The notes under the pieces were generated by a model. That model was not told the DNA's origin and ran no database searches. It saw only the letters and a program-made list of their open reading frames with translations. Below, in pieces: positions 11,812-64,000 of a DNA stretch of 64,000 nt (position 1 is the stretch's first letter; each line of letters begins with the position of its first letter). The translations under genes were made by a program, and so were the position numbers. The stretch covers positions 1,327 to 65,326 of the forward strand of contig CAZIHS010000002.1 of NCBI GenBank assembly GCA_964538765.1. The letters are read 5' to 3'. Origin of the DNA: an uncultured Gammaproteobacteria bacterium (lineage in GTDB: Bacteria; Patescibacteriota; Microgenomatia; UBA12405).

Positions 11812-11829
11812 TTTTGTTATACTCTTTCT

Positions 11830-12321: not shown

Positions 12322-12322
12322 A

Positions 12323-12991: not shown

Positions 12992-12992
12992 C

Positions 12993-13865: not shown

Positions 13866-13870
13866 ATACA

Positions 13871-49735: not shown

Positions 49736-50517
49736 ACAAAATAACAAAACAACCTCCCTCCTTATCGGTGGCCATTGCCACCTACAATGAACAAAACAAT
49801 ATCAAGCGCTGCCTTGACAGCGTCAAAATGCTAGCCAGCGAAATCATAATCGTCGACGGTCAATCAACCGACGGCACCATCTCTATTGCCAAAAAATATA
49901 AAAACACCAAAATAATATCTACAACAAATAAGCCAAACTTTCACCTCAACAAACAACTGGCAATAGACAATTGCACCTCAGATTGGATTCTGCAGCTTGA
50001 TGCGGACGAATCAGTTTCGCGAGAGTTAGCAAATGAAATAACAAAAACAATTGCTTCGACTCACCTTGATGGTTTCTGGATAAAACGCAAAAACTTTTTT
50101 CTGGGTAGATTTATCACCAAAGGCGGATTTTATCCTGATCCAACACTAAGGCTGTATCGTCGTGGAAAAGCCAGACTACCCTGTCAAGATGTCCACGAAC
50201 AGGCCGAAGTTAACGGACAAGTGGGTTGGTTGACAAATGATCTTCTCCATTTTTCCGACCCAACTTTCTCTCGCTACCTTCTCAGAAACGACCGGTACAC
50301 CTCTCTAATTGCCACAAAACTTTATGAAAATGGCGTCCGGGCAAATATTTTAAATTTTGTTAAGTATTTTTTTCTAAGGCCGACAATCACCTTTATATCT
50401 ACATATTTTCGACATCGAGGCTATGTTGACGGCTTTCCCGGCTTTGTCTTTTGTTTTTTTTCGGCACTTAGATTTCCAATATCTTTCGTCAAACTATGGG
50501 AACTGTCCAAAACATAA
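49732..50517 (+). CDS. GT2 glycosyltransferase (paralog of 29721/31560)
   Basis: 'LSVAIATYNEQNNI', 'IVDGQSTDGT', 'LQLDADE' and 'GGFYPD' motifs. Confidence 0.75.
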   Translation: MNKITKQPPSLSVAIATYNEQNNIKRCLDSVKMLASEIIIVDGQSTDGTISIAKKYKNTKIISTTNKPNFHLNKQLAIDNCTSDWILQLDADESVSRELANEITKTIASTHLDGFWIKRKNFFLGRFITKGGFYPDPTLRLYRRGKARLPCQDVHEQAEVNGQVGWLTNDLLHFSDPTFSRYLLRNDRYTSLIATKLYENGVRANILNFVKYFFLRPTITFISTYFRHRGYVDGFPGFVFCFFSALRFPISFVKLWELSKT

Positions 50518-51590
50518 AAAAACCAAAAAATATCGCCATTGATATTAGTCCACTTCAAGACTCCAACTCAAAAAGGGGAGTCGGCTTTTATACCCGACTA
50601 CTTATAGACTCTCTTCATACTGAAATTAAGTTAAATCCAGATTTTTCCCGATTTAAAATATCGCTGGTTACAAACAATATTTTTCCGGCCAAAACAAGTT
50701 TAATCCATTACCCGTTTTTCAATCCTTTCCAAAAAACATTACCGGCCAAAACATATTGCCCCACCATAGTTACAATTCACGACCTGATCCCAAGACAACT
50801 TAAAAAATATTATCCGGTTGGCCTAAAAGGAGAAATTAATTGGCTTTTCCAAAAACACCGCCTAAAAAACATTGACTATATTATCACCGATTCTCACACT
50901 TCTAAATATGAAATTCATCGCCACACCGGCTATCCTCTGGACCGCATGTATGTTATCTATCTGGCCGCGGCCGACTACATTAAACCCGTAAAAAACACGG
51001 CGATTCTAAAAAAAATACAAAAAAAGTATCACCTTCCCGATAAATTTGTACTCTACGTTGGCGATATTAATTACAATAAAAATATCCCCCTGCTGGTTAA
51101 CACCTGTCTCGATCTCAAGTATCCTTTAGTAATTATCGGTGACTCAGCCAAAAGTCAAGATGTTCCCACGCACCCCTGGACCAAAGACCTCCTCTGGCTT
51201 CAGTCCAAAGCCAAAACTACCCCTGCCAGCCAGCTGATTTTAACCGGTTTTGTTCCAGACTCTGAAATATCGGCCATCTATTCGCTTGCCACTATCTATT
51301 GCCAACCGTCTTTTGCTGAGGGTTTTGGGCTTCCTTTAGTTGAAGCCATGCAGGCCGGCTGTCCAACCGTTTACAGCTCGGAATCGTGTTTAGAAGAAAT
51401 TAGCCAAAATTCAGGCATATCGTTTTCGCCCTACTCTGCCCAAGAGCTATCGTTAGCTCTAAAACAAATTTGGACATCTCCACTTATAGCCAACAAACTA
51501 ATAAAACTTGGTCTTAAAAGAGCCAAATACTTCAGTTGGTCATTCACCGCCAAACAAACACTTTCTGTTTATCAACTCGCCCTACTATAA
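50496..51590 (+). CDS. GT4 (GT-B fold) glycosyltransferase
   Basis: 'FAEGFGLPLVEAMQAGCPTV' is the E-x7-E region of the GT4 family. Confidence 0.8.
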   Translation: MGTVQNIKKPKNIAIDISPLQDSNSKRGVGFYTRLLIDSLHTEIKLNPDFSRFKISLVTNNIFPAKTSLIHYPFFNPFQKTLPAKTYCPTIVTIHDLIPRQLKKYYPVGLKGEINWLFQKHRLKNIDYIITDSHTSKYEIHRHTGYPLDRMYVIYLAAADYIKPVKNTAILKKIQKKYHLPDKFVLYVGDINYNKNIPLLVNTCLDLKYPLVIIGDSAKSQDVPTHPWTKDLLWLQSKAKTTPASQLILTGFVPDSEISAIYSLATIYCQPSFAEGFGLPLVEAMQAGCPTVYSSESCLEEISQNSGISFSPYSAQELSLALKQIWTSPLIANKLIKLGLKRAKYFSWSFTAKQTLSVYQLALL

Positions 51591-52394
51591 ATGCCACCGA
51601 CAAAACATTTTTTATCGGTAATTATTCCTGTTTACAAACAGGAAAAAACAATTTCCAAAGATGTCGAAAACATCACCAGTACCTTAAACAACATTCGCTA
51701 TCCTTACGAAGTAATCGCGGTAGTTGATGGCACTTCAGCCGATAATTCCTACAATATTCTTAAAAAACTAAAACTGCCAAACCTAAAAGTATATGGCTAT
51801 CAAACAAACCATGGTAAAGGTTACGCCATCCGCTTTGGCATGGCCAAAACAAAAGGGGATTATATTGCCTTTATTGACTCGGGGATGGAAATAGACCCAA
51901 ATGGCATTTCGCTTTTAATAGAACACCTGGAATGGTATCAGGCCGATATAATTGTCGGTTCAAAACACCATCCCGCCTCAAAGGTTCACTACCCTTTTTT
52001 CCGTCAGCTACTTAGCTATATCTCCTGGCTCTACTCAAAGATATTTCTCGGAATAAACGTTAGAGACACCCAGGCGGGACTAAAACTTTTTCGGCGGCCG
52101 GTTTTAGTCACCATCCTGCCCAGGCTTCTAATCAAAAGTTTTGCCTTCGATATGGAAATATTATCTGTTGCTTCTCGGCTTGGTTATAATCGAATTTACG
52201 AGGCACCGATAAAACTTACCTACGTTTTCGAGGGTCTTCATCTCAACGGACGTTTTTACCACACATTGTTTAAAATAGGGCTAGATTCGCTGGCAATTTT
52301 TTATCGACTGCGTCTCCTGAAATACTATGACGACCGAAACCATCGTCGCTGGCGGTATGACCCCGAGCTTAGAATGAGAATAAACATTGGGTAA
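51591..52394 (+). CDS. GT2 polyprenyl-phosphate sugar synthase-like glycosyltransferase
   Basis: 'LSVIIPVYKQEKTI', 'VIAVVDGTSADNS' and 'IAFIDSGMEID' are DPM1/GtrB-like motifs. Confidence 0.75.
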   Translation: MPPTKHFLSVIIPVYKQEKTISKDVENITSTLNNIRYPYEVIAVVDGTSADNSYNILKKLKLPNLKVYGYQTNHGKGYAIRFGMAKTKGDYIAFIDSGMEIDPNGISLLIEHLEWYQADIIVGSKHHPASKVHYPFFRQLLSYISWLYSKIFLGINVRDTQAGLKLFRRPVLVTILPRLLIKSFAFDMEILSVASRLGYNRIYEAPIKLTYVFEGLHLNGRFYHTLFKIGLDSLAIFYRLRLLKYYDDRNHRRWRYDPELRMRINIG

Positions 52395-52398
52395 ACTT

Positions 52399-53412
52399 AT
52401 GAATAACCGCCTATTATTTTCTATAATTATTCCTGTTCGTATTGAAAACAGCTACCTTAAGGAAACCATTAAACACCTAAACAACCAAAGTGAAAAAAGC
52501 TTTGAGTTATTGGTAATAACCGATAAGCTGGCGTCTTTATTATCACTCAGTTCAAAATATAATATAGGACCATCGGCCAAACGCAACCTTGGAGCTAAAA
52601 TCGCCAAAGGAAAATACCTGGCCTTTATCGACGACGACTCCTACCCAAACCAGAATTGGTTAAAAAACGCCCTTATCCACCTAAACTCAGCCGCCGATAT
52701 TTCAGCAGTGTGTGGACCATCTCTCACCCCACCCTCCGACAATGTCTATCAACAGGCCTCTGGCCTCGTCTGGTCGTCCTGGTTTGGAGCAGGTGGCGCC
52801 GGGATATATCGAAATCGTATTAGCAAACCACGTTTTGTTGATGATTTTCCCTCAGTAAACTTAATTGTAAACAAGGCCGATTTCGACAAAATCGGTGGTT
52901 TCAACGAAAAATATTGGCCAGGTGAAGACACCCTTCTTTGTTTATCCATAGTTAACAGTTTAAATAAAAAAATCTATTATCATCCCTCAATCGTTGTATA
53001 CCATCATCGCCGCCAGGTCATTATTCCCCATCTTCAGCAAATCCGCCGCTACGCTATTCATCGCGGTTATTTTGCTAAAAAATACCCAAAAAACAGCCTG
53101 AAAATAGGGTATATAACTCCCTCAATATTTGTTATCTACCTGCTTCTAATCCTACCTATTTTATATCTTTTTCCCGCATTTCGCCTCCCAATTTTAATGC
53201 CCCTTGCAACCTACATAATTATACTGATATCCAACTTTGTCTACTCACTGCACCAGAATCGTAATCTGCCTTTATCTATCTATTTTGTGATCTCACTTCC
53301 GCTTACTCATATTTACTATGGAATCTTTTTTCCACTGGGTTACTTCAGTTCCGACCTGTCTTTAAAACTTCACAAAGTTAACACTAAAACCGGAAACTAT
53401 CTTGGCGGTTGA
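52399..53412 (+). CDS. GT2 glycosyltransferase with C-terminal transmembrane domain
   Basis: 'FSIIIPVRIENSYL' and 'FIDDDSYP' GT2 motifs, plus 3-4 C-terminal TM helices. The start was set at the ATG at 52399 (no overlap); a TTG at 52387 is also possible. Confidence 0.7.
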   Translation: MNNRLLFSIIIPVRIENSYLKETIKHLNNQSEKSFELLVITDKLASLLSLSSKYNIGPSAKRNLGAKIAKGKYLAFIDDDSYPNQNWLKNALIHLNSAADISAVCGPSLTPPSDNVYQQASGLVWSSWFGAGGAGIYRNRISKPRFVDDFPSVNLIVNKADFDKIGGFNEKYWPGEDTLLCLSIVNSLNKKIYYHPSIVVYHHRRQVIIPHLQQIRRYAIHRGYFAKKYPKNSLKIGYITPSIFVIYLLLILPILYLFPAFRLPILMPLATYIIILISNFVYSLHQNRNLPLSIYFVISLPLTHIYYGIFFPLGYFSSDLSLKLHKVNTKTGNYLGG

Positions 53413-53448: not shown

Positions 53449-54981
53449 ATGAGCAAAACAAAACCCACAATTTCCATTTCCTATCCTCCACTTTCAAATC
53501 AAAAAGGCCAGCCTTTTCTATCCCAAAATCGGCAGTTTCAATGGACCAACACTGGAAATGTAATTTACCCCGTTATTCCCGCCTACGGCGCCTCACTGTT
53601 AAAACAATCCGGCTACCAGGTGTTTTGGGACGATGCAATCTCAGAAAAAATTTCCTACTCCGATTGGCTGTCCCGTCTTAAAGACCGTAAACCAGAAGTA
53701 ATTTTTTTTGAAGCCAAAACTCCCACCATCAAAACACATTGGAAAATAATAAATGAAATAAAGGATCTAAACTTGACATCATGGAAACCCGTCATTGTGT
53801 TAATGGGAGATCACGTTACCGCTCTTCCGGCCGAATCCTTAAAACAATCAAAAGTTGATTTTGTCATAACCGGAGGAGATTACGATTTTATGATGCACAA
53901 CCTGGTTTCACATCTCTTCCTTTCCCAAAAACTTGAACCGGGTTTTTACTATAAAAGTAAAAGTCAAAACGGCAAGCACAAGATCGTCAATACCGGCCCT
54001 TTTGCCCTCAAACATCACCAACTTGACAGTCTTCCGTTTATCGACCGGAAACTGACCCGATGGGAATTATACGCCTACGACAATACAAACTATAAATACA
54101 CGCCAGGAACATATTTAATGTCGGGGCGGGATTGCTGGTGGGGAAAGTGTACTTTTTGCTCATGGACCACCACCCACCCGGCAGGGACATTCCGCTTTTT
54201 CTCCCCAAAAAGACTTCTGGATGAAATTGACAAAATATCCGCCGAATACGGAGTCAAAGAAATTTTCGATGATGCCGGAACACTTCCGATAGGTCCATGG
54301 CTTTCTCAATTCTGCCAGGGACTCATAAGCCGGGGTCTGAACAAAAAACTACGCTATGGATGCAACATGCGTTTTTCGGCGTTAAACCAATCACAATATT
54401 ACCAAATGGGCCAGGCTGGCTTCCGGTTTATTCTCTATGGTCTTGAGTCAAATAACCAAAGTACATTAGACAAAATCAAAAAAAACACCAAAGTAGAAGA
54501 GGCAAGAAAAACATTAATAATGGCAAAAAAGGCCAATTTAGAGCCGCACCTGACTATTATGATTGGCTACCCCTGGGAAACCATAAATGACGCCACCAAC
54601 ACTTTAAACGAGGCTCGCCGGCTATTTCTTGATGGTTTGGCCGACACCATGCAAGCCACCCGGATAATTCCTTATCCCGGCACGCCGCTATTCGAACAAT
54701 GCCGAAAAAACGGTTGGCTTCTTACCGAAAACTGGGATGATTACGATATGCGCCAGCCAGTAATGAAGTCACCCATCAGTCACCTGGATCAAGAAAAGCT
54801 CATCCAGGATTTATTCAAAGGGATACTAACCCCAAAGTTTATTTATCGAAAAATATCAACCATCAGGAATCTAGACGACATAGTTTTCCTTTCCCGCTAC
54901 GCCATCAAATACCTTAAAAAGTTATCAGACTTCAGCATTAACAATGCCAAATCTCAAATCAAAACTCCAAAACTTCAATAA
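53449..54981 (+). CDS. B12-binding-domain radical SAM enzyme (class-B-like)
   Basis: N-terminal Rossmann-like B12-binding region ('VIVLMGDHVTALP...DFVITGGDYDF') followed by the cysteine triad 'CWWGKCTFC', which has CX4CX2C spacing. Confidence 0.7.
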   Translation: MSKTKPTISISYPPLSNQKGQPFLSQNRQFQWTNTGNVIYPVIPAYGASLLKQSGYQVFWDDAISEKISYSDWLSRLKDRKPEVIFFEAKTPTIKTHWKIINEIKDLNLTSWKPVIVLMGDHVTALPAESLKQSKVDFVITGGDYDFMMHNLVSHLFLSQKLEPGFYYKSKSQNGKHKIVNTGPFALKHHQLDSLPFIDRKLTRWELYAYDNTNYKYTPGTYLMSGRDCWWGKCTFCSWTTTHPAGTFRFFSPKRLLDEIDKISAEYGVKEIFDDAGTLPIGPWLSQFCQGLISRGLNKKLRYGCNMRFSALNQSQYYQMGQAGFRFILYGLESNNQSTLDKIKKNTKVEEARKTLIMAKKANLEPHLTIMIGYPWETINDATNTLNEARRLFLDGLADTMQATRIIPYPGTPLFEQCRKNGWLLTENWDDYDMRQPVMKSPISHLDQEKLIQDLFKGILTPKFIYRKISTIRNLDDIVFLSRYAIKYLKKLSDFSINNAKSQIKTPKLQ

Positions 54982-55615
54982 CTACCGATATGGCTACCAA
55001 AACACTGCCATAAACAACCGTCTTGCTATCATAAAAGACCTTATCGATCCAAACGGTTACCTTCTTGATTTAGGTTGCGGCCGCGGTCACTTCCTAAAAT
55101 ACCTTGGACCCCAATATCGCTCGTTAGGCTATGACATTTCGACAACATCCATCAAACATTGCCTTTCTAAAAAAATAAATGCCAAGGTTGTTAACCTTGA
55201 AGAATCTTTTCCCGACAGCGCTAACACCTTTGATACCATCGTAGCAGGAGAAATTATTGAACACATTTTTGATACAGATAGTTTTCTCTCAGAAATTAAA
55301 AGAGTTCTAAAACCAAACGGTTCATTAATTCTATCTACCCCAAACCTGGCCTCTTTAGGCCGCCGACTACTTCTTATGATTGGCCGTAACCCATTGATTG
55401 AAGATAGTCTTGGTCCTCAAAATGCCGGCCACGTCCGATATTTCACCTTTCCACTCTTAAAACAGCTTCTAACCCGTCATGGTTTTGAAATTGAAATACA
55501 CAAAACCGACCAGATCAACTTTGATAACCAAGGCCGGCACTTTTCTACCTTCCTTTCTAATCTTTTTCCAAAATTAGGAGCCTCAATTATTCTAAAATGC
55601 AAAAACACAAAGTAA
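54944..55615 (+). CDS. Class I SAM-dependent methyltransferase
   Basis: 'LLDLGCGRGHF' motif I and 'LKPNGSLILSTPN'. Architecture is like the gene at 11065. Confidence 0.75.
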   Translation: MPNLKSKLQNFNNYRYGYQNTAINNRLAIIKDLIDPNGYLLDLGCGRGHFLKYLGPQYRSLGYDISTTSIKHCLSKKINAKVVNLEESFPDSANTFDTIVAGEIIEHIFDTDSFLSEIKRVLKPNGSLILSTPNLASLGRRLLLMIGRNPLIEDSLGPQNAGHVRYFTFPLLKQLLTRHGFEIEIHKTDQINFDNQGRHFSTFLSNLFPKLGASIILKCKNTK

Positions 55616-56613
55616 ATACGGTTTCCTTCTGCATTCCAACATATAACGCCGGCAAAGTTTTGGAACCGTGCCTTAATTCTATTCGTTCGCAAAAATATGA
55701 TCAATCAAAAATTGAAATAATAATAATAGACGCGGGTTCAACCGATAATACTCTGAATATTGCGCACCAATTTAACGCCCTCATATTTTCAAATCCTCTA
55801 AAAACCGGGGAAGCTGGTAAATCAATCGGCATCTCAAAAGCTAAGGGTGAATATATTGCTCTAATAGACTCAGACAACATACTTCCACACCGGTTATGGT
55901 TGCGAAGTATGATCAGACCCTTAATCAATGGCTCTAAAATAGTTGGAAGTGAACCAAAATATTTTACATATCGTCCAAAAGCCGGCTTCATTGAGCGTTA
56001 CTCGTCACTGCTTGGAGCCAACGATCCATACGCCTTCTTTTGCGGGCTATATGACCGGTATTCATATTTAACCAAACGCTGGACAAACCTGCCGCTAAAC
56101 ATAAAAGTTAAAAATAAATATTCCCAAATCTTAATTAAACCCGGCCAATCCATACCAACTATCGGGGCAAATGGAACTATATTTAGAAGCCGGTTTTTAA
56201 AAAAATACCACCAAGGAAGCTATTACTTCGACATCGATATCATCAACCGCGCCCTAACTCAACTTTCAAAGCCAATCTACTTTTCCAAAACAAACCAGTC
56301 AATTATCCACACCTATTGCGAAAACTCAATTGCCAAATTTTATATCAAGCAAACACGACGGGTTAATGACTATTTATTTTACCTTCCTCTAAGATCATTT
56401 GACTGGAAAAAAGCCAACTCCATTTCAATGTATATTTTCCCTCTCTATTCAATTAGCCTCATATTCCCGCTCTACCACTCTATAAAAGGATATCTTTCAA
56501 AACCCGATTTGGCCTGGTTTTTTCACCCAATAGCTTGTTTAATTACCTCCTTCGTCTATATTAAAGGCTACCTGTTTCGTCATCCCACTGACAGGTCAAC
56601 ATGGCATCAATAA
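55597..56613 (+). CDS. GT2 glycosyltransferase
   Basis: 'VSFCIPTYNAGKVL', 'IIIDAGSTDNT' and 'ALIDSDN' are GT2 motifs. Confidence 0.75.
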   Translation: MQKHKVNTVSFCIPTYNAGKVLEPCLNSIRSQKYDQSKIEIIIIDAGSTDNTLNIAHQFNALIFSNPLKTGEAGKSIGISKAKGEYIALIDSDNILPHRLWLRSMIRPLINGSKIVGSEPKYFTYRPKAGFIERYSSLLGANDPYAFFCGLYDRYSYLTKRWTNLPLNIKVKNKYSQILIKPGQSIPTIGANGTIFRSRFLKKYHQGSYYFDIDIINRALTQLSKPIYFSKTNQSIIHTYCENSIAKFYIKQTRRVNDYLFYLPLRSFDWKKANSISMYIFPLYSISLIFPLYHSIKGYLSKPDLAWFFHPIACLITSFVYIKGYLFRHPTDRSTWHQ

Positions 56614-57608
56614 AAAATAAAACCAACGTCAGCATTCTTATTCCAACCTATAACGGCGCGGCCTTCATAAAAAATACTCTTCAATCAATTTTCAATCAAA
56701 CATATCCTCACTATGAAATAATAATTTGTGACGATGCCTCAACCGACGAAACAATAAAAATAATAGAAAGCATATCCAATCCGAAAATAAGAGTTTATCG
56801 TCACAGCACAAATCTTGGATATCCCGGTAATCTCGAACGGGGTCGTCAATATTGCCGTTTACCATATCTTTACTTAGTCGGCCAGGACGATATACTCTCC
56901 CGAAACGCCCTCGAGTTAACCATCAAAGCTTTTTTCGAAAACCCAGAAATTGGAGCTGCTTCCAGACACTACTATTGGTTCCATAAAAACCCCGAAAAGC
57001 CTGTCCGCGCCAAGAAAAAACTTAACAGCCAAATCACTGTAATCTCAACTAAAAGTAATAAACAAAATATTATTAGACTTTTTGACAGTCTCGACCAGCT
57101 TACCGGTCTTTGTTACAAAAGAGACTATATTAGAATTCCATTCCACCCCGACATCTTTCCCTGTCACATCTATCCTTTCGCCGATATTTTTATTAATCAC
57201 CCGGTAGCTTTCCTGCCAAATTACACCGTCGCTGTCAGAATCGCCAGTAGTCAAACCCGCCAGCTTTCCTCCATATATAACAAGTCGCCAATATTAAGCT
57301 GGTGTCAGATGATAGATCATATTTTTTCTCTACCAAAATACAAAAATATAAAAAATTACCTTGTAAAAGACTTTATCGCTACAAATTATGTTGGCCTAAT
57401 TCAAATACGCAACTACTCAACCTATAAAAATCTTTTCAGAGAAATATATTATCTGTTGCGTTTTCGCTGGCAAAATATAGTTTCTCCAGGGTTTTGGCTA
57501 TTTTCCTTGGGATCGGCAATTCTGCCTCCAAGTGTCCTGATACCACTTGTCGATTGGTATAAAGAAAATATCTACAGCCAAACCATCACCAACATCAAGC
57601 TTGACTAA
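56601..57608 (+). CDS. GT2 glycosyltransferase
   Basis: 'VSILIPTYNGAAFI', 'IICDDASTDET' and 'YLVGQDD' are GT2 motifs. Confidence 0.75.
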   Translation: MASIKNKTNVSILIPTYNGAAFIKNTLQSIFNQTYPHYEIIICDDASTDETIKIIESISNPKIRVYRHSTNLGYPGNLERGRQYCRLPYLYLVGQDDILSRNALELTIKAFFENPEIGAASRHYYWFHKNPEKPVRAKKKLNSQITVISTKSNKQNIIRLFDSLDQLTGLCYKRDYIRIPFHPDIFPCHIYPFADIFINHPVAFLPNYTVAVRIASSQTRQLSSIYNKSPILSWCQMIDHIFSLPKYKNIKNYLVKDFIATNYVGLIQIRNYSTYKNLFREIYYLLRFRWQNIVSPGFWLFSLGSAILPPSVLIPLVDWYKENIYSQTITNIKLD

Positions 57609-57652
57609 CAACAATATATGAATATTACACACTCTTAAGATAAAATACCTAA

Positions 57653-59311
57653 ATGATAGTACTAGGTCTAACTGCTCCAATTTCATGGAACCCCGCTGCC
57701 GCCATATTCAAAGATCAAAAACTTTTGGCTGCGGTTGAAGAGGAGCGGTTTCTTGGCTTGAAACATGCCCCTCGCCTCCTGCCTCTTAAATCAATTGATT
57801 ATTGTCTTATATCAAGCAAAATTAATGCCCAAGATGTCGACGCAATCGTTTTTGGCTATCGTCAACCGCTTGACTACTATCTTCGTTCACTAATTGAAAA
57901 TTTTAAATATAAAGACCTCAAAAGAGCCGCTCGGGAAGCGGGGGCTTTTGCTGAATACTATGTTGGGTTAATCCGCCTTTACGATTGGCTGAAAATTAGA
58001 GGATTCAAGCTGGAAGGCGATAATCCTGTCAAAATTAAATTTTACCCCCATCACCTGGCTCATGCCGCCTCAGCCTTTCGATGCTCTGGCTTCAAATCGG
58101 CCAATACTATCACCCTTGATGGTCAGGGAGAAGATGATTCGGGGTCAGTATGGTACTCCAGCAACCGTAATCTAAAACTTCTAACTAAAATATCAAGCCA
58201 TCAAAGCCTAGGCTGGCTATATAGCGACACCACCGACATTCTCGGGTTCAAAGTTCACAGTCACGAAGGAAAAACTATGGGTTTATCCGCCTGGGGGAAA
58301 AAAAACCTTAAATTGGGCGATTTATTTTCGATTACACCCCAAGGGTATGTTTTAAAACACAACTGGAACAACAAACTATGGCAGCGTTTTGGTCCAAGAC
58401 GTGACAAAAACACTCCACTGTCCAACACCAACCGAAATTTAGCCCTGACAATTCAAACTTTTACCCAGGAGGCCGGCGTTTCTCTGGCCAAAAATGTCTT
58501 TTCCAAAACCAGGAACGGAAACTTTTGCCTTTCCGGTGGAGTGGCCTTAAATTGCGATATGAACTCTCACATATGGCTCCAGGATTTTATTGAAAATATC
58601 TACATTCAACCTGCCTCAAACGATGCCGGAACGGCCATAGGTGCCGCGCTGGAGTTTTTAAACGAGTCTGGATTAAACTCCGACTTTACAATGGATCACC
58701 CCTATTGGGGCCCAGAATATCAAAATGACGAAATTGAAAACTACTTAAAAGAATCAAAGATAAACTATCAAAAAGTCAGAGATATAGAAAAGGTAGTTTC
58801 TAAAAAATTGTCTCAGGGAAAAATTGTTGGCTGGTTTCAAGGCAGATTAGAAATTGGCCCCCGAGCTCTCGGCAACCGTTCAATTCTTGGCCATCCAGGA
58901 CTAAAAGGCATGAAAGACAAAATTAACCGTGAAGTAAAACACCGGGAAACATGGAGACCGTTTGCCCCGTCAGTACTGCACGAAGCTGGCCCTGATTACT
59001 TCCAAAAATACTGTTTCCATCCATTTATGGTTCTTGGTTTTAATACAAACAAAAAAGCCCAAAAAGATCTTTCACAGGCCATTCACATCGACAACACTGC
59101 ACGCATTCAAAGCGTCACTTCCGCTACCAACCCGAGGTACTATCGTTTAATTAAAAACTTTGCCTCAATCACTGGCATTCCTGCCCTTCTAAACACCTCT
59201 TTCAACGATGCCGAACAACCCCTCGTTCTTTCACCCAAAGAAGCAATCAAAACTTATTTTGGCACCGGGCTTGATTTATTAGCCATCGGCGATTTTATTT
59301 TGGAAAAATAA
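57653..59311 (+). CDS. Carbamoyltransferase, NodU/CmcH/TobZ family
   Basis: N-terminus 'MIVLGLTAPISWNPAAAIFKDQKLLAAVEEERF' and a later 'YPHHLAHAASAF' His motif are typical of O-carbamoyltransferases. Confidence 0.75.
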   Translation: MIVLGLTAPISWNPAAAIFKDQKLLAAVEEERFLGLKHAPRLLPLKSIDYCLISSKINAQDVDAIVFGYRQPLDYYLRSLIENFKYKDLKRAAREAGAFAEYYVGLIRLYDWLKIRGFKLEGDNPVKIKFYPHHLAHAASAFRCSGFKSANTITLDGQGEDDSGSVWYSSNRNLKLLTKISSHQSLGWLYSDTTDILGFKVHSHEGKTMGLSAWGKKNLKLGDLFSITPQGYVLKHNWNNKLWQRFGPRRDKNTPLSNTNRNLALTIQTFTQEAGVSLAKNVFSKTRNGNFCLSGGVALNCDMNSHIWLQDFIENIYIQPASNDAGTAIGAALEFLNESGLNSDFTMDHPYWGPEYQNDEIENYLKESKINYQKVRDIEKVVSKKLSQGKIVGWFQGRLEIGPRALGNRSILGHPGLKGMKDKINREVKHRETWRPFAPSVLHEAGPDYFQKYCFHPFMVLGFNTNKKAQKDLSQAIHIDNTARIQSVTSATNPRYYRLIKNFASITGIPALLNTSFNDAEQPLVLSPKEAIKTYFGTGLDLLAIGDFILEK

Positions 59312-60822
59312 TGAAAATTGTTTTTGTCGGTATTGCTGTCGAAAGCCTCGCCATTGAATTTCTAAGCAGCTATCTAAAAGAACGTGGGCATGACGTTCAT
59401 CTGGTTTTTGACCCAAACAGTTTCTCTACCGAAGTTATAAATCAGCCGCTTTTAGCCAAATTTTTCGATACCAAAAACCCGATTGTCAATCAAATCAAAA
59501 AAATAAACCCAGACCTGATCGGATTTTCTGTTTTTACCCTAAACTATCAACGATCACTCACCCTTTCCCGGCTTATCAAAAGTCAACTACCCGACATTCC
59601 GATTATTTTTGGAGGAATCCATCCAACATCTGTCCCTGAAATAGTCATAAAAGAACCATCGGTAGATATGGTTTGTATTGGCGAGGGAGAAGAAGCCCTG
59701 GACGAATTACTTCAAAACCCCGAAAAAACCGGTATAAAAAATATCTGGTTTAAAAAAAATAACAAAATAATTAAAAATCCCTGTCGGCCATTAATCAAAA
59801 ATCTTGACACCCTGCCCTTTCCCGACAAAGACTTATACTGGAAAATCTACAAAGGGTTTTTCCGGGATTATTACACCATCAGCAGCCGGGGCTGTCCTTT
59901 CGCCTGCACTTATTGTGCAAATAATGTTATCCGCCGTATCTATCAAGGTCTAGGTCCACCCATCCGCCGTCGAAGCCCAGAAAACATTGTCGAGGAGCTG
60001 TCTCTTGCCAAAAAAAAATATCACCTAAAGCTAGTAACTTTTGTTGATGACGTATTCGTTCAGGATTTGGGGTGGTTAAAAGAATTTGCCAAGTTATACA
60101 AAAAAAACGTCAACCTTCCCTATGCCATGCTAACCCACCCAAAATTTATAAACAAGGAAATAGCCAAAACTCTGGTTAAATCAGGTTGCTATTTCCTGCT
60201 TTTTGGAATCCAATCAGCCTCGGAAAAAATTCGCACTTCAGTTTTAGAGCGATTTGAAACTAACGCCGAAATTGAAAATGCCGCCAAAAGCTGTCACCAG
60301 GCCGGCCTGCGTTTTTCAATCGACCACATCTTCAATATCCCCGGTGAAACAGTTACCGAGTATGTTCAGGCCATGAGATTTTACAATAAGCTTCGGCCCT
60401 CGGTTATCAATGCCTATTGGCTTCAATATTTTCCAAAAACTAAAATTATCGATCACGCTCTAAAGCTAGGAATTCTTACTCGAGAGGATGTTTTAAAAAT
60501 TGAAAATGGTCAGGCCTCTTCTTCTTTAGTTCTCGGCTTTGGCAACAAAGACAGCGTCAACCCCAATCAGATATATTCACACATCCAACTATTTTTTATG
60601 ATTCTGCCATTTCTTTCACAAAACATTACCAATAAAATAATTAACACTCGCTTCTATTTAAAACCGGTCAAAATACCAATGATCATTGCAGTATCAATAA
60701 AATTCCTACTTATTTTTATTAACAAACGGGCCGAGGTATACATAGGCATCATCAGAAGTATTATCTATTTTTCCTTTTACAGTCTCTGGTCAAAATTAGT
60801 TTATGGAAAAAGCCAAACCTAA
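59311..60822 (+). CDS. B12-binding-domain radical SAM enzyme (class-B-like)
   Basis: N-terminal B12-binding-like domain ('KIVFVGIAVE...IPIIFGGIHPTS...CIGEGE') plus the canonical 'GCPFACTYC' CX3CX2C triad. Confidence 0.75.
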   Translation: MKIVFVGIAVESLAIEFLSSYLKERGHDVHLVFDPNSFSTEVINQPLLAKFFDTKNPIVNQIKKINPDLIGFSVFTLNYQRSLTLSRLIKSQLPDIPIIFGGIHPTSVPEIVIKEPSVDMVCIGEGEEALDELLQNPEKTGIKNIWFKKNNKIIKNPCRPLIKNLDTLPFPDKDLYWKIYKGFFRDYYTISSRGCPFACTYCANNVIRRIYQGLGPPIRRRSPENIVEELSLAKKKYHLKLVTFVDDVFVQDLGWLKEFAKLYKKNVNLPYAMLTHPKFINKEIAKTLVKSGCYFLLFGIQSASEKIRTSVLERFETNAEIENAAKSCHQAGLRFSIDHIFNIPGETVTEYVQAMRFYNKLRPSVINAYWLQYFPKTKIIDHALKLGILTREDVLKIENGQASSSLVLGFGNKDSVNPNQIYSHIQLFFMILPFLSQNITNKIINTRFYLKPVKIPMIIAVSIKFLLIFINKRAEVYIGIIRSIIYFSFYSLWSKLVYGKSQT

Positions 60823-61972
60823 ACTACTTTTTATTTTTAACCAGCTTCTATTTCCCTGTTTAATGAGCGGCGGTGATGTTAAAGGTCACCAAGTCTACAC
60901 GCTGGTATGCCAATCAAAAATATTCGACCCGTCAGTGGTCACCCCCTCATCCAGCCAAAATCTCTTTCCCCAAAACCCAAAAAATAACGTTAAGGTAATC
61001 GGCAATCCTGTCGGCAAACCATATTTAGTTAACCGTTTCTGGGTTACCTTGTATTACATACTTCGTGCTTTCCACACCATCCCCAAAATTATTACCAGAA
61101 ATTTTGATTCCATCTACACCACCGGCGATTTCTTTTGCAACACCTTCCCGGCCTATATCTATAAAATTACCCATCCAAAGTGCCGTTGGAATGCCTGCGT
61201 TTTCCACTTAAATCCAAAGCCAAGCAACAGGCAAAATACCTATTTTAATAGCCTGTTTTCCTACATTTTTCAAAAAGTAGGCATATTCTTTATTAATTCA
61301 AAAGCCGACAATGTTTTTCTTCTAAACCACCAAATCCGCCACCAGTTGGTTATTCAAAATTTTCGTCCAAATATGGTAGTTTCGGGGGCAGGTATCGATT
61401 CAAGCCACATATTAGCAAACACCCCTAAAATAACCTCTCCCCAGCCCCATTCCTTGCTTTTTCTGGGTCGGATCTGCCAAACCAAAGGAGCTCTAGACTT
61501 GCCCCTTATCTTAAGCAAAATTAAAAATATATATCCGGATACCCACCTAAACATGGTCGGCACTCCAGACATGTCAATATTAAATAAACTTAAAGACTCA
61601 TTTAATTCACTCGGCCTGAATAGCAACTACACCCTCCACAACTATGTAGCCGACAAAACTAAATACCGGTTAATAAAAGAATCAGAAGTGTGTATTTTCC
61701 CTTCATATGAGGAAGGCTGGAACATCTCGCTATTTGAATGCTTGTTTTTAAAAAGATTTTCCCTCGTTTACAAACTTAATTTTTACCGCCCGATTTTTAA
61801 AACGAATTTAATCCAAGTCCCTCTCGGAAACAAAAATCAATTTTCCAAAACTGTTGTCGATTATTTTATCAACCCTTCGTCTTTTGCTAAAAACATTTCT
61901 GCCTGCCACCGCATTTCACGTCAATACCAATGGCGCAACGTCTATAACAAAGAACTCCCTTTTCTTTTCTAG
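60803..61972 (+). CDS. GT4-like (GT-B fold) glycosyltransferase
   Basis: C-terminal 'LLFLGRICQTKG...CIFPSYEEGWNISLFECLF' resembles the GT4 EX7E region. The N-terminal domain is divergent. Confidence 0.5.
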   Translation: MEKAKPKLLFIFNQLLFPCLMSGGDVKGHQVYTLVCQSKIFDPSVVTPSSSQNLFPQNPKNNVKVIGNPVGKPYLVNRFWVTLYYILRAFHTIPKIITRNFDSIYTTGDFFCNTFPAYIYKITHPKCRWNACVFHLNPKPSNRQNTYFNSLFSYIFQKVGIFFINSKADNVFLLNHQIRHQLVIQNFRPNMVVSGAGIDSSHILANTPKITSPQPHSLLFLGRICQTKGALDLPLILSKIKNIYPDTHLNMVGTPDMSILNKLKDSFNSLGLNSNYTLHNYVADKTKYRLIKESEVCIFPSYEEGWNISLFECLFLKRFSLVYKLNFYRPIFKTNLIQVPLGNKNQFSKTVVDYFINPSSFAKNISACHRISRQYQWRNVYNKELPFLF

Positions 61973-63678
61973 CTTCCCCCAACCTGTTTACTAATTTCAA
62001 CCATTGCTCCCAATGCTGACTGGTTTTTTGGATCCAATTCTAGCGATTTTTTAAACGACCTTATTGCCTCATCTCTTTGGCCAAGCCTTGACAAAACCAC
62101 TCCATAAACAAACCAAGACTGGGAACTGTTCGGCGTTTTTTGAACTAAAGTCACCACATGTTTTACCGCCTGCTCGGCATTTTTTTCAATGAGATCAATC
62201 TGTACTAAACTCATATATGTTTGATAGAGATCAGGATTGAAACTTATTGCGGTTTCATAGCTTTGCCTGGCCAAATCGTATCGGCCCATTTTAAAAAATA
62301 TATTGGCCCGGTTATGATACGCATCAGCATAGTTACTCTTAACCACCGTTGATTGGGTAAAACCCTTTACAGCACTTTCTAAATCATTAAGTTTGTCATA
62401 GTCATCGCCTATATTATTCCACGCATTATGACTATTCGGAGACACCTGTACCGTATTCACCCAAAGCTTATGGTTTGTTTGCCAATCGATGTTTCTCAAA
62501 AATATTCTGTATCCATAAAACCCGCAAACAACAATCAGCGCCCCCAACGCCAAACGCGCACTTCGTTTCTCCAACGCCTCAAATATGATTCCAACCAGCA
62601 TTGCCGCACCCAAAGAACCCAAAAACATGTATCTCTCGGCTACTAACCAGCTAACTTTTAACGGGGTCATTGAGGGAGCCGCCGCCAAAAATATAAATAC
62701 CAGTGCAAAAAACATCCTTTTATTCTTAAAAAGAAAATATCCCGCCGCTGACAAATATGTAATCAAAATAGACCAGTTCAACCAAGAAGGGATAACAAAC
62801 AGAGTGTGATATAAAGTTAAATCAACCGGAAAAAATATTAACTGGAGATATTTAGAAACAGATAAAGGATATTGGAAAAAAGGGCTATAAAGCATATCTC
62901 CAAGGCCGCTGACACCACCGTTGACTGCCTGGATTCTAAATTTAATTAGAGGATACATGATCAAAGAAAACAAAAAAACCATCAAAAGCGAAACCAGAGC
63001 AACCCTAGCAAAACTAAAATTCTTACGTATTCTAACCCCGAATAAAAATATATACGCCAAACCTATCAAAACCGCTGAACCAAATCTTGTTTTTTCCGCT
63101 AAAAAATTAATTGGAAATAAAAGTACAACCAACTTCAGGTATCGTTTATTTCCAGTCCTTTCATATAAAGATAGAAAAATCAGCTCTAATAATACAAAAA
63201 AGGCATTAAGTAAATATGGCTTACCGGACACCCAGCTAACCGCTTCAACATGAATTGGAAAAAAACTAAATACCAGAATTGTATAAAACACAGCTCTGCT
63301 GTCAGAAATTATACGTAACCAGATAAACGCTAAAGTTATTACCACCAAGTAAAGGCAAAGACTGAAAATATGGTAAGGAACTGGGTTTTGGTTTCCAAAA
63401 AACGAAGCGATAAACGCATTAATCGTTAAGGGCAAGCTAATCTGCTTTATGGCGCCAACCACGTTACCCGCTTCAGGGTTCTGACTGATAGTCGCGTAAT
63501 CATCTGAAACAAAATGACCCCAAAGACCGTTCACATAAACAACAGATACTAAAAAGTACAATACCATCAAAAACCTTAAATTCCGCCTGACAACTCCAAT
63601 AACATCAAAATTGACAACATTTTCAGTCACCAAAACACTTTTTTTTTCAATTCTTTTAAGCTTATTTTTCTTGGACAT
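61969..63678 (-). CDS. TMTC-like GT-C membrane glycosyltransferase with C-terminal TPR repeats
   Basis: N-terminal polytopic domain with a 'GLWGHFVSDDYATISQ' loop (DD variant of the DE motif) and about 10 TM helices. The last ~170 aa contain 3-4 TPR units ('AWNNIGDDY...AYHNRANIFFKMGRYDLARQSYETAISFNPD...'). Confidence 0.6.
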   Translation of the reverse strand: MSKKNKLKRIEKKSVLVTENVVNFDVIGVVRRNLRFLMVLYFLVSVVYVNGLWGHFVSDDYATISQNPEAGNVVGAIKQISLPLTINAFIASFFGNQNPVPYHIFSLCLYLVVITLAFIWLRIISDSRAVFYTILVFSFFPIHVEAVSWVSGKPYLLNAFFVLLELIFLSLYERTGNKRYLKLVVLLFPINFLAEKTRFGSAVLIGLAYIFLFGVRIRKNFSFARVALVSLLMVFLFSLIMYPLIKFRIQAVNGGVSGLGDMLYSPFFQYPLSVSKYLQLIFFPVDLTLYHTLFVIPSWLNWSILITYLSAAGYFLFKNKRMFFALVFIFLAAAPSMTPLKVSWLVAERYMFLGSLGAAMLVGIIFEALEKRSARLALGALIVVCGFYGYRIFLRNIDWQTNHKLWVNTVQVSPNSHNAWNNIGDDYDKLNDLESAVKGFTQSTVVKSNYADAYHNRANIFFKMGRYDLARQSYETAISFNPDLYQTYMSLVQIDLIEKNAEQAVKHVVTLVQKTPNSSQSWFVYGVVLSRLGQRDEAIRSFKKSLELDPKNQSALGAMVEISKQVGGS

Positions 63679-63738: not shown

Positions 63739-63996
63739 TCAAAACATATCTCTAAAAAATCCTGCCACCTTATGGGCACTGTGCCTCAATCTGAAATTTA
63801 AATCGTCAACAATAATTAAGTCAGCCACAACGGTACTAATATCACAATTAACATCGTGTTTTATTGGAAAAGAATGTTCCATGCTATATAACTTCAAAAC
63901 CTCAGTAAGCAGTTTCCTATCAAGTTTTGACAGATCAGCCATAACAATCATATCTAACCTTAATTTAGCCCCCAGATATTTTTTCAAAAGTTTCAC
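63739..63996 (-). CDS. Hypothetical small protein
   Basis: 85 aa ORF adjacent to the window edge. No recognisable motif. Confidence 0.25.
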   Translation of the reverse strand: MKLLKKYLGAKLRLDMIVMADLSKLDRKLLTEVLKLYSMEHSFPIKHDVNCDISTVVADLIIVDDLNFRLRHSAHKVAGFFRDMF

Positions 63997-64000
63997 ATAG

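What the first reader, a model, noticed from the sequence alone, without database searches (positions are those of the whole stretch)
53449..61972. Sugar-tailoring sub-cluster: two B12-binding radical SAM enzymes, a SAM methyltransferase, a carbamoyltransferase, two GT2s and a GT4
The combination of class-B-like radical SAM enzymes and a NodU/CmcH/TobZ-type O-carbamoyltransferase is characteristic of modified-sugar tailoring. Class-B radical SAM enzymes are C-methyltransferases in aminoglycoside pathways such as GenK/GenD1 and Fom3. Here the set is embedded in a glycan-assembly island. This predicts C-methylated and/or carbamoylated sugars in the glycan.

The cluster is also striking for a small-genome, CPR-like organism that presumably cannot make cobalamin. 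It implies cofactor scavenging.
Basis: partly seen in the sequence, partly recalled or inferred. Interest (0 to 1): 0.72.

Follow-up and report, generated by a model that had tools for sequence, protein, structure and literature searches.

The report
Glycan-tailoring genes in a CPR bacterium
This is the tail end of a large cell-surface sugar-building operon shared by Shapirobacteria-like (CPR) bacteria; its most notable part is an uncharacterised radical enzyme that sits between two glycosyltransferase genes in most related loci, in many bacterial phyla and in genome bins labelled as archaea.

Summary
All seven genes exist at the stated coordinates with the stated folds. The block is not a self-contained unit. 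It is the 3' half of a tightly packed 17-gene operon (41547-61972) that is syntenic across Shapirobacteria/Microgenomates.

The two radical SAM proteins differ.
- rSAM2 (59311-60822) is a canonical B12-binding radical SAM. Its nearest solved structures are cobalamin-dependent methylases. It is sporadic among relatives, as is the TobZ-like carbamoyltransferase.
- rSAM1 (53449-54981) belongs to one tightly conserved, uncharacterised family, more than 50% identical across CPR, cultured Desulfovibrio relatives and bins labelled archaeal.
- rSAM1 has an invariant CX4CX2C cluster motif and a B12-domain score below the Pfam threshold.
- Its best structural match is AprD4, a cobalamin-free sugar diol dehydratase.
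- It follows a GT2 gene directly in 73 of 79 loci, and a second GT2 follows in most.

Neither protein reaches the cut-off of any curated family, methylating or not. Carbamoylated and methylated sugars remain a reasonable prediction. "Two C-methyltransferases" is unproven and doubtful for rSAM1. Cobalamin scavenging is plausible but could not be tested here.

The parts
41547..49735 (+). Five tandem PMT_2/PMT-like GT-C membrane glycosyltransferase paralogues (41547-43187, 43177-44886, 44883-46490, 46480-48132, 48113-49735). This is the start of the operon.
   Evidence: Pfam PMT/PMT_2 hits for the last two. The first has no Pfam hit. Each has 7-10 hydrophobic segments. Homologues lie in the same order in Microgenomates loci at 40-55% identity.
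49732..52394 (+). GT2 (49732-50517), GT4 (50496-51590) and GT2 (51591-52394). The last gives weak full-length matches to polyprenyl-phosphate sugar synthases (ArnC, PpgS, PgfS, AglJ).
   Evidence: Pfam and NCBIfam. Conserved order GT2_A-GT4_B-GT2_C in 48 loci at 47-67% identity.
52387..53412 (+). GT2_D, the glycosyltransferase that directly precedes rSAM1 in most related loci.
   Evidence: Pfam Glycos_transf_2 / Glyco_trans_2_3. A homologue lies immediately upstream of rSAM1 in 73 of 79 testable loci, median gap -4 nt.
53449..54981 (+). rSAM1: the core radical SAM enzyme. It has a class-B-like two-domain architecture, a CX4CX2C cluster motif (C229, C234, C237) and an invariant N-terminal QNRQFQ motif.
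54944..55615 (+). Class I SAM-dependent methyltransferase. It is an accessory gene inserted between rSAM1 and GT2_E.
   Evidence: Pfam Methyltransf_23/11/31/12/25. It is absent at this position in L087, L089 and most other loci.
55597..56613 (+). GT2_E, the conserved glycosyltransferase downstream of rSAM1.
   Evidence: Pfam. A homologue lies within 3.5 kb downstream of rSAM1 in 52 of 59 testable loci. The full triad is present in 48 of 56.
56601..57608 (+). GT2_F, an accessory glycosyltransferase with a C-terminal hydrophobic segment.
   Evidence: Pfam; hydropathy. It is present only in a subset of loci and lies next to the carbamoyltransferase in L087, L030 and L031.
57653..59311 (+). TobZ/NodU/CmcH-type O-carbamoyltransferase (N-terminal Kae1-like domain plus C-terminal YrdC-like domain).
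   Evidence: Pfam 172 and 215 bits. TobZ E=1e-80 with the HHLAHAASA motif aligned. Present in only 2 of 24 loci that reach the TPR gene, and also in L087 and L089.
59311..60822 (+). rSAM2: canonical B12-binding radical SAM (CX3CX2C at C195, C199, C202; GGIHPT motif) with a hydrophobic C-terminal helical tail.
60803..61972 (+). GT4 glycosyltransferase, the last gene of the operon.
   Evidence: Pfam Glycos_transf_1 / Glyco_trans_1_4. Weakly conserved (20-36% identity) in related loci.
61969..63678 (-). Convergent membrane protein with about 9 hydrophobic segments and C-terminal TPR repeats. It is the conserved right-hand boundary of the operon in Microgenomates.
   Evidence: Pfam TPR families; hydropathy. 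Homologues at 44-58% identity lie in the same convergent position.

Best explanation
The segment is the tailoring end of a roughly 20-kb, 17-gene operon (41547-61972) for a cell-surface glycan or glycoconjugate. The operon is conserved in Shapirobacteria/Microgenomates.

Shown:
- The operon has a fixed core: four or five GT-C paralogues, then GT2_A, GT4_B, GT2_C, GT2_D, rSAM1 and GT2_E.
- A strain-variable set follows before a convergent TPR membrane protein. In this genome the variable set is a class I methyltransferase, GT2_F, a TobZ-like carbamoyltransferase, rSAM2 and a GT4.
- The sub-unit GT2_D-rSAM1-GT2_E also occurs outside CPR. There it usually sits next to a Wzx flippase, an ArnC/PgfS-like polyprenyl-phosphate glycosyltransferase and a sugar-nucleotide SDR.

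Inferred mechanism:
- All steps happen on the cytoplasmic face, on a lipid-linked or nucleotide-linked sugar.
- GT2_D installs a sugar.
- rSAM1 cleaves SAM at its CX4CX2C [4Fe-4S] cluster and abstracts a hydrogen from that sugar. It then converts the sugar before GT2_E extends the chain.
- I judge a non-methylating conversion most likely (about 0.55). This would be an AprD4-type dehydration or deoxygenation, or an HpnJ/OxsB-type rearrangement. C-methylation is about 0.3.
- The accessory enzymes then decorate the glycan. The carbamoyltransferase makes carbamoyl-AMP from carbamoyl phosphate and ATP and O-carbamoylates a sugar hydroxyl. The class I methyltransferase O- or N-methylates.
- rSAM2 most likely acts as a cobalamin-dependent C-methylase (about 0.6), possibly held at the membrane by its hydrophobic tail.
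- The product is flipped and used by the GT-C enzymes outside the membrane.
For: Operon and synteny:
- ORF packing and chance-level promoter and terminator sites.
- The same gene order in L001, L004, L087, L089 and 48 Microgenomates-type loci.

Core versus accessory:
- rSAM1 forms a single family present in all 86 fetched loci, which were retrieved through it. Accessory B12-radical SAM genes fall into at least 19 families at 40% identity, each in 1-17 loci.
- Among 24 loci that reach the TPR gene, the carbamoyltransferase is present in 2, a methyltransferase in 7 and accessory radical SAM genes in 9.

Coupling of rSAM1 to the GT2 genes:
- GT2_D lies directly upstream in 73 of 79 loci, with a median gap of -4 nt. 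The full triad is present in 48 of 56.
- The family is found in three genomes deposited as strains, not as MAGs: Fundidesulfovibrio agrisoli SG106, Desulfovibrio sp. DV and Desulfosarcina cetonica JCM 12296. It is also found in many MAG phyla.
- Non-CPR neighbours are a Wzx flippase, an ArnC/PgfS-like GT2 (238 and 160 bits) and an SDR.

rSAM1 chemistry:
- AprD4 is also the top Foldseek match and the top sequence match among solved structures.
- The best curated HMM is HpnJ, aligned over the full length.
- The B12-binding score is below the Pfam threshold. AprD4 does not bind cobalamin.

rSAM2:
- B12-binding 69.8 bits.
- The four best-matching solved proteins are cobalamin-dependent methylases (MgmA, CysS, TokK, TsrM).
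- A natural fusion of a homologue with a class I methyltransferase exists (P0230).

Carbamoyltransferase: TobZ E=1e-80 and a natural GT2 fusion (P0316).
Against: - There is no biochemical or glycan-composition data for any member, so every reaction assignment is inference.
- For rSAM1, several points favour real cobalamin dependence.
  - The CX4CX2C motif is shared with OxsB, GenK and GenD1, which are cobalamin enzymes. GenK and GenD1 are sugar C-methylases.
  - The N-terminal domain is about as conserved as the catalytic barrel (mean column identity 0.67 against 0.72), so it is not vestigial.
  - Some family members pass the Pfam B12-binding threshold (34.1 and 39.8 bits).
- No AprD3-like reductase partner lies in the CPR operon.
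- The structural ranking rests on an AlphaFold model (pLDDT 84) built from a shallow alignment of sequences 62-70% identical to the query.
- The acceptor is unknown. No priming phosphoglycosyltransferase was found among the annotated ORFs of the window, and several ORFs have no family hit.
Confidence: 0.55

Rival explanations
1. One reading: both radical SAM proteins are cobalamin-dependent C-methyltransferases of the GenK/GenD1/Fom3 type. The glycan would then carry C-methyl branches made by both enzymes.
For: - Both have the class-B two-domain architecture.
- rSAM1's CX4CX2C motif is the one reported for GenD1, GenK and Sis14.
- rSAM2's nearest solved structures are methylases.
- Methylases make up most of the named, characterised members in the class-B similarity network.
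- rSAM1's N-terminal domain is strongly conserved, and some family members pass the Pfam B12-binding threshold.
Against: - No curated methylase family cut-off is approached. PhpK scores 50 and 64 bits against 600, KedN5 74 against 700, and HpnR 39 and 60 against 650.
- rSAM1's best matches are non-methylases: AprD4 by structure and sequence, HpnJ and BchE by HMM.
- rSAM1's B12-binding score is sub-threshold.
- CX4CX2C is also found in the non-methylase OxsB.
Confidence: 0.25
2. The radical SAM enzymes act on a lipid rather than a sugar, for example the polyprenyl carrier or a scavenged membrane lipid. Precedents are HpnJ, HpnP and HpnR, the ladderane enzyme and the GDGT-modifying radical SAM enzymes.
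For: - The best curated hits include HpnJ and the lipid-biosynthesis B12/radical SAM family TIGR04072 (98 bits for rSAM2).
- rSAM2 has a hydrophobic C-terminal tail.
- Lipid-modifying radical SAM enzymes are numerous.
Against: - All these scores are far below the family cut-offs.
- The neighbours are glycosyltransferases, a carbamoyltransferase and flippases, not lipid-synthesis genes.
- HpnJ itself is proposed to act on the sugar head group, not the lipid chain.
- From general knowledge, CPR bacteria lack de novo lipid synthesis.
Confidence: 0.1
3. The radical SAM enzymes modify a protein or peptide that the PMT-like GT-C enzymes glycosylate. Precedents are amino-acid C-methylation by MgmA, PoyC or Mmp10. 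The cluster would then be a glycoprotein or RiPP-like maturation system.
For: - rSAM2's top structural hit is MgmA, a protein glutamine C-methylase.
- rSAM2 gives RiPP radical SAM hits: ApyD 97 bits and rSAM_ocin_1 83 bits.
- PMT-family enzymes O-glycosylate proteins.
- GT2_A's top NCBIfam hit is the SunS peptide S-glycosyltransferase, at 62 bits against a cut-off of 350.
Against: - There is no room for a precursor-peptide gene. Gaps within 53449-61972 are at most 44 nt.
- All these scores are far below the cut-offs.
- rSAM1 is tied to GT2 genes, a Wzx flippase, an ArnC-like GT2 and an SDR in non-CPR genomes, which is polysaccharide-type context.
Confidence: 0.07

Closest known systems
AprD4 (radical SAM 1,2-diol dehydratase of apramycin biosynthesis, PDB 6fd2)
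   Different: Identity is only about 15%. The NCBIfam AprD4 model scores 37.5 bits against a cut-off of 500. No AprD3-like reductase lies in the operon. The context is a primary surface-glycan operon, not an aminoglycoside cluster. rSAM1's N-domain is strongly conserved and borders on the Pfam B12-binding threshold, whereas AprD4 does not bind cobalamin.
GenK / GenD1 (cobalamin-dependent radical SAM sugar C-methyltransferases of gentamicin biosynthesis)
   Same: They are class-B enzymes acting on sugars and are reported to carry a CX4CX2C motif like rSAM1.
   Different: No sequences or models of GenK or GenD1 were available, so membership could not be tested directly. No curated methylase family is approached. 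GenK and GenD1 are secondary-metabolite enzymes and have no flanking GT2 pair.
HpnI-HpnK-HpnJ (hopanoid cyclitol-ether head group)
   Same: A GT2 (HpnI) installs a hexosamine, and a class-B radical SAM enzyme (HpnJ) is proposed to contract the sugar ring. HpnJ is the best curated HMM hit of both rSAM1 (138.6 bits, aligned over the full length) and rSAM2 (116.4 bits).
   Different: The scores are far below the cut-off of 577.6. No hopanoid genes are present. GT2_D does not list HpnI among its hits. No HpnK-like deacetylase was seen.
OxsB (cobalamin-dependent radical SAM ring-contraction enzyme, PDB 5ul2-5ul4)
   Same: It has a CX4CX2C cluster motif. The rSAM1 family profile aligns to it across the Rossmann and barrel domains (26.5 bits). 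It is a non-methylating class-B enzyme that acts on a sugar (deoxyribose) ring.
TobZ / NodU / CmcH O-carbamoyltransferases
   Same: The window protein has both Pfam domains, aligns to TobZ at E=1e-80, and conserves the HHLAHAASA metal-site motif. TobZ and NodU carbamoylate sugar hydroxyls.
   Different: It is not a NodU equivalog (145 bits against 1000). It is encoded in a primary glycan operon of a CPR bacterium, and the acceptor is unknown.
ArnC/ArnT and GtrB/GtrC-type pathways (polyprenyl-phosphate sugar made by a GT2 and used by a GT-C outside the membrane)
   Same: PMT_2-type GT-C paralogues are present together with a GT2 resembling polyprenyl-phosphate sugar synthases. The match is weak for the window's GT2_C. 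It is clear for the F4 family in non-CPR loci (PgfS 238 bits, ArnC 160 bits).
   Different: No curated cut-off is reached. There are many more GT-C paralogues, plus radical SAM enzymes, which those pathways lack.

Membership tests
Radical SAM superfamily | Radical_SAM (PF04055) barrel with a three-cysteine motif for the SAM-binding [4Fe-4S] cluster | tested here: met
   rSAM1 scores 46.5 bits and rSAM2 71.3 bits, against a gathering score of 29.5. rSAM2 has the canonical CPFACTYC motif (CX3CX2C). rSAM1 has the variant CWWGKCTFC (CX4CX2C), conserved in 85 of 86 family members.
Class B (cobalamin-dependent) radical SAM enzymes | N-terminal B12-binding domain (PF02310) at or above the gathering score | tested here: inconclusive
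   rSAM2 scores 69.8 bits against 32.1, so the feature is met. rSAM1 scores 25.3 bits (E=1.5e-5), below threshold. Roughly half of rSAM1's close homologues carry a precomputed PF02310 hit, and two intein-bearing members score 34.1 and 39.8 bits. A Rossmann-like fold is present in the model.
Class B (cobalamin-dependent) radical SAM enzymes | Actual binding of cobalamin | not testable with these tools
   This needs purified protein (UV-visible spectrum, cobalt analysis) or a co-folded model. AprD4 and ArsL sit in the same similarity network yet do not bind cobalamin.
Cobalamin-dependent radical SAM C- or P-methyltransferases (GenK, GenD1, Fom3, PhpK, KedN5, HpnR, TokK, CysS) | Sequence membership in a characterised methylase family | tested here: not met
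   PhpK scores 49.9 and 64.4 bits against 600. KedN5 scores 74.1 against 700 (rSAM2). HpnR scores 39.2 and 60.4 against 650. rSAM_ocin_1 scores 52.3 and 83.0 against 281.9. No GenK, GenD1 or Fom3 models or sequences were available. TokK and CysS are the nearest solved relatives of rSAM2 only at fold level, with 14-18% identity.
HpnJ (hopanoid-associated radical SAM) | TIGR03471 score at or above 577.6, plus hopanoid gene context | tested here: not met
   The scores are 138.6 bits (rSAM1) and 116.4 bits (rSAM2). No hopanoid genes were found in the window or in the related loci.
BchE (anaerobic Mg-protoporphyrin cyclase) | TIGR02026 score at or above 481 | tested here: not met
   The scores are 98.9 and 93.0 bits.
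AprD4 family radical SAM diol dehydratases | NF033070 score at or above 500, plus an AprD3-type reductase partner | tested here: not met
TobZ/NodU/CmcH O-carbamoyltransferases | Carbam_trans_N (Kae1-like) and Carbam_trans_C (YrdC-like) domains, with the His-rich metal site | tested here: met
   The domains score 172.2 and 215.2 bits. The alignment to TobZ (3vex) has E=1.3e-80 and shows HHLAHAASA conserved. The NodU equivalog itself is not met (145 bits against 1000).
GT2 and GT4 glycosyltransferases | Pfam Glycos_transf_2 or Glycos_transf_1 above the gathering score | tested here: met
   The two GT2 score 84.3 and 100 bits. The GT4 scores 35.7 and 36.4 bits against cut-offs of 26.4 and 27. No specific equivalog cut-off is reached.

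The most novel reading that the evidence does not exclude
GT2_D-rSAM1-GT2_E is a widespread module with no characterised member. It is found in CPR, sulfate reducers, Acidobacteriota, Elusimicrobia and other bacterial phyla, and in genome bins labelled archaeal.

Its CX4CX2C, AprD4-like radical SAM enzyme would perform a sugar transformation not yet described for primary cell-surface glycans. Candidates are radical deoxygenation, ring contraction to a carbasugar, or C-branching. The modified residue would be a fixed core of the Microgenomates envelope glycan.

If rSAM1 and the accessory class-B enzymes truly need cobalamin, these minimal-genome bacteria would depend on corrinoid from their neighbours to build their surface.
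Probability: 0.4. Interest if true: 0.7.

Novelty: new variant of a known kind. Interest (0 to 1): 0.5.

Why it matters
Each gene belongs to a known superfamily, so the cluster as described is a fairly ordinary glycan-tailoring set. What stands out is rSAM1. It forms a single family more than 50% identical across distant phyla, it directly follows one GT2 gene in 73 of 79 loci and is usually followed by another, and it has no characterised member. It matches no curated family, and its nearest structure is the only reported radical SAM sugar dehydratase.

Working out its reaction would add a new radical step to primary glycan biosynthesis. It would also name a component of the cell surface of Microgenomates, whose envelopes are almost unknown. 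Three genomes deposited as strains carry the module: Fundidesulfovibrio agrisoli SG106, Desulfovibrio sp. DV and Desulfosarcina cetonica JCM 12296. The question can therefore be tested by genetics and biochemistry now.

The repeated presence of canonical B12-binding radical SAM genes in these operons also gives a concrete handle on whether CPR bacteria need external corrinoids.

Tried and rejected
- Exact look-ups of the window's own proteins for their source contig found nothing on record. Cluster look-up showed only an unnamed NCBI contig of 69,119 bp.
- The afdb50 fold library was not available, so no UniProt-named structural neighbours could be obtained.
- Full-text searches combining CPR, Microgenomates or Patescibacteria with radical SAM, glycosyltransferase or cobalamin found no paper on this module.
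- The Rfam scan of the window found nothing, including no cobalamin riboswitch. Promoter and terminator scans were at chance level.
- I considered that GT2_D and GT2_E are close paralogues, because they fell into one single-linkage cluster. Direct comparison shows only a short, generic match of 29% over 76 residues, so I rejected this.
- I considered an SDR reductase partner just downstream of the operon, as in L001. The window's partial ORF at 63739-64000 is instead the end of a CofD/YvcK-like gene, so I rejected this.
- A 412-aa "unknown" ORF next to the triad in L059 proved to be a wrong-frame artefact of a high-GC genome.
- HpnJ/HpnI-type membership was considered and not met.
- The AprD4 primary paper (PMC4943880) is not held, so I make no claim about AprD4's own cluster motif.
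- MAG labels such as "uncultured Gammaproteobacteria" or "Methanoperedens" on contigs with Shapirobacteria-type synteny (for example L028) look like generic or mis-binned labels. The archaeal occurrences were not independently verified.

Full report
OBSERVATION

The seven + strand ORFs lie exactly at the stated coordinates.
- rSAM1 (53449-54981): Radical_SAM 46.5 bits; B12-binding 25.3 bits, below the gathering score of 32.1.
- 54944-55615: class I SAM methyltransferase.
- 55597-56613 and 56601-57608: two GT2.
- 57653-59311: carbamoyltransferase, with N- and C-domains at 172 and 215 bits.
- rSAM2 (59311-60822): B12-binding 69.8 bits and Radical_SAM 71.3 bits.
- 60803-61972: GT4.

Adjacent genes overlap by 1-38 nt or are separated by at most 44 nt. 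Promoter-like and terminator-like sites occur at chance frequency. GC content is uniform, 0.37-0.44 across the whole window. The genes are real. However, only one of the two radical SAM proteins passes the B12-domain threshold, and the stated block is not a natural unit.

ORGANISM AND WIDER CONTEXT

The best homologues of rSAM1, rSAM2 and the carbamoyltransferase are 65-71% identical. Those that carry a name are labelled Candidatus Shapirobacteria, Microgenomates or Patescibacteria. The CPR origin is therefore supported.

The first 15 kb of the window are housekeeping genes: SecA, BipA, a release factor, an LCP protein, FtsEX and an M23 peptidase. From 15722 onward the window is one long glycosylation island. 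It encodes about 10 PMT_2-type GT-C paralogues, about 14 GT2, 4 GT4, a GT87-like protein and a Wzx flippase. The window holds no B12 transporter gene among the annotated ORFs and no cobalamin riboswitch.

COMPARATIVE GENOMICS

Eighty genome loci were fetched with rSAM1 as query, and nine more through exact-protein look-ups. In 48 Microgenomates-type loci the order is fixed: four or five GT-C paralogues, then GT2_A, GT4_B, GT2_C, GT2_D, rSAM1 and GT2_E. A variable stretch averaging about 5.4 kb follows, closed by a convergent membrane and TPR protein. The window's operon (41547-61972) follows this plan.

Among the 24 loci that reach the TPR gene, a carbamoyltransferase occurs in 2, a class I methyltransferase in 7 and accessory radical SAM genes in 9. 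The accessory B12-radical SAM genes fall into at least 19 different families at 40% identity, and all have the canonical CX3CX2C motif.

The window's cassette GT2_F-carbamoyltransferase-rSAM2 recurs intact in L087 (GCA_028710865.1) at 57-67% identity, without the methyltransferase. L089 combines the carbamoyltransferase with other radical SAM genes.

rSAM1 IS A DIFFERENT KIND OF GENE

It belongs to one family that stays more than 50% identical from Shapirobacteria to other CPR lineages and well beyond. Non-CPR carriers include Elusimicrobia, Acidobacteriota, Latescibacterota, Nitrospinae and Omnitrophota. They also include three genomes deposited as strains: Fundidesulfovibrio agrisoli SG106, Desulfovibrio sp. 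DV and Desulfosarcina cetonica JCM 12296. MAGs labelled Methanoperedens, Bathyarchaeia and "archaeon" carry it too. Some MAG labels are clearly generic or mis-binned, and the archaeal ones were not verified.

In a library clustered at 50% identity, only 299 representatives reach E<=1e-30.

Family features:
- The cluster motif RDCWWGKCTFC (CX4CX2C) is present in 85 of 86 members.
- An N-terminal QNRQFQ segment is invariant.
- The N-terminal Rossmann-like domain is about as conserved as the barrel, with mean column identity 0.67 against 0.72.

A GT2_D homologue lies directly upstream in 73 of 79 testable loci, with a median gap of -4 nt. The full triad GT2_D-rSAM1-GT2_E is present in 48 of 56. 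Outside CPR, the triad usually sits beside a Wzx-type flippase, an ArnC/PgfS-like polyprenyl-phosphate glycosyltransferase (238 and 160 bits) and a sugar-nucleotide SDR. That is surface-polysaccharide context.

CLASSIFYING THE TWO RADICAL SAM PROTEINS

Neither protein approaches the cut-off of any curated NCBIfam family. Both have HpnJ as best hit (138.6 and 116.4 bits against 577.6). BchE, ApyD, the ladderane-type lipid family and several methylase families follow, all at a small fraction of their cut-offs.

AlphaFold models are confident, with pLDDT 84.4 and 88.1.

For rSAM1, AprD4 is the best match in every comparison with solved structures.
- AprD4 is also first by Foldseek and by sequence.

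AprD4 is a radical SAM 1,2-diol dehydratase that acts on an aminosugar. A 2026 review states that it does not bind cobalamin, although it sits in the B12-radical SAM similarity network.

For rSAM2, the four best-matching solved proteins are cobalamin-dependent methylases: MgmA, CysS, TokK and TsrM.

The CX4CX2C motif does not discriminate. It is reported for the non-methylase OxsB and for the sugar C-methylases GenD1, GenK and Sis14. Two intein-bearing members of the rSAM1 family pass the Pfam B12-binding threshold. Cobalamin binding by rSAM1 therefore stays open.

MECHANISM

Shown: operon structure, the split into core and accessory genes, fold classes, and the TobZ-type carbamoyltransferase with its metal-site motif.

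Inferred:
- GT2_D adds a sugar to a lipid-linked or nucleotide-linked intermediate on the cytoplasmic face.
- rSAM1 generates a 5'-deoxyadenosyl radical, abstracts a sugar hydrogen and converts that residue. GT2_E then extends the chain.
- I put about 0.55 on a non-methylating conversion (AprD4-type dehydration or an HpnJ/OxsB-type rearrangement), about 0.3 on C-methylation, and the rest on other chemistry.
- The accessory enzymes decorate the product. The carbamoyltransferase O-carbamoylates through carbamoyl-AMP. The class I enzyme O- or N-methylates.
- rSAM2 probably C-methylates with cobalamin (about 0.6). Its hydrophobic C-terminal helices suggest it works at the membrane.
- Natural fusions support these couplings: GT2 plus carbamoyltransferase (P0316), and B12-radical SAM plus class I methyltransferase (P0230).
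- The GT-C paralogues and the flippase then use the lipid-linked products outside the membrane.

RIVALS

- The substrates are lipids (0.1).
- The substrates are proteins or peptides (0.07).

The evidence for and against each is given in the rival entries.

COBALAMIN

Canonical B12-binding radical SAM genes recur in these CPR operons, with 0-2 accessory copies per locus. From general knowledge, CPR genomes lack corrinoid synthesis. If that holds here, uptake from neighbours is implied. This could not be tested, because only the window and 10-kb flanks of relatives were readable.

VERDICT

It over-reads the radical SAM genes as two GenK-like methylases, and it misses that one of them is a conserved core enzyme of unknown chemistry. 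The cluster itself is a variant of a known kind. The GT2-rSAM1-GT2 module is the part worth following up.

Noticed in passing
rSAM1 family members P0361, P0363, P0364, P0366 and P0367 (no intein in the window copy, 53449-54981): Several family members carry inteins inserted at or next to the Fe-S cluster cysteines. Intein_splicing, LAGLIDADG_3 and Hint domains were confirmed by Pfam for P0361 and P0363. In P0361, P0366 and P0367 the intein sits before the third Cys. In P0363 it sits at the first Cys.
   Followed up: yes
window 15722-61972: A glycosylation island of about 46 kb. It holds about 10 PMT_2-type GT-C paralogues, about 14 GT2, 4 GT4, a GT87-like protein (35089-36279), a Wzx-type flippase (24913-26406) and a PTPS_related membrane protein (23219-24976). 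Several large ORFs have no family hit (21351-23222, 26361-28058, 36860-38584, 40245-41501). No priming phosphoglycosyltransferase was seen.
   Followed up: partly
window 61969-63678 (- strand): A membrane protein with about 9 hydrophobic segments and C-terminal TPR repeats. It is conserved as the convergent right-hand boundary of the operon in Microgenomates. The layout recalls GT-C plus TPR enzymes or O-antigen-ligase-like proteins. Its function was not tested.
   Followed up: partly
window 53512-53559 (rSAM1 residues 22-37): An N-terminal segment, PFLSQNRQFQWTNTGN, precedes the Rossmann-like domain. Its central L.QNRQFQ core is invariant across all 86 family sequences compared. The AlphaFold model has low confidence for residues 24-32. 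It might contact the substrate or occupy the cofactor site.
   Followed up: partly
P0316 (Moraniibacteriota); P0230; P0182: Natural fusions were found. P0316 is GT2 plus carbamoyltransferase (897 aa). P0230 is an rSAM2-like B12-radical SAM plus a class I SAM methyltransferase (776 aa). P0182 is an rSAM2-like protein with a SPASM domain listed in its precomputed Pfam hits (870 aa); this one was not checked further.
   Followed up: partly
L028, L010, L018 and others (genome contigs record titles): Contigs with Shapirobacteria-type synteny and 61-68% identity are deposited under labels such as "uncultured Gammaproteobacteria bacterium" or "Candidatus Methanoperedens sp.". These labels are probably generic or mis-binned, so taxonomic claims based on MAG titles need care.
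   Followed up: no
window 10058-14983: A LytR-CpsA-Psr (LCP) protein lies next to a class I methyltransferase, FtsE/FtsX and an M23 peptidase. LCP enzymes attach glycopolymers to peptidoglycan, which could be relevant to the fate of the island's product.
   Followed up: no
window 63739-64000 (- strand): A partial ORF running off the window end is the C-terminus of a CofD/YvcK-like protein. Its homologue L031:17903-18886 scores 145 bits against Pfam CofD. It follows the TPR gene in several relatives, whereas other relatives have an SDR epimerase there.
   Followed up: yes
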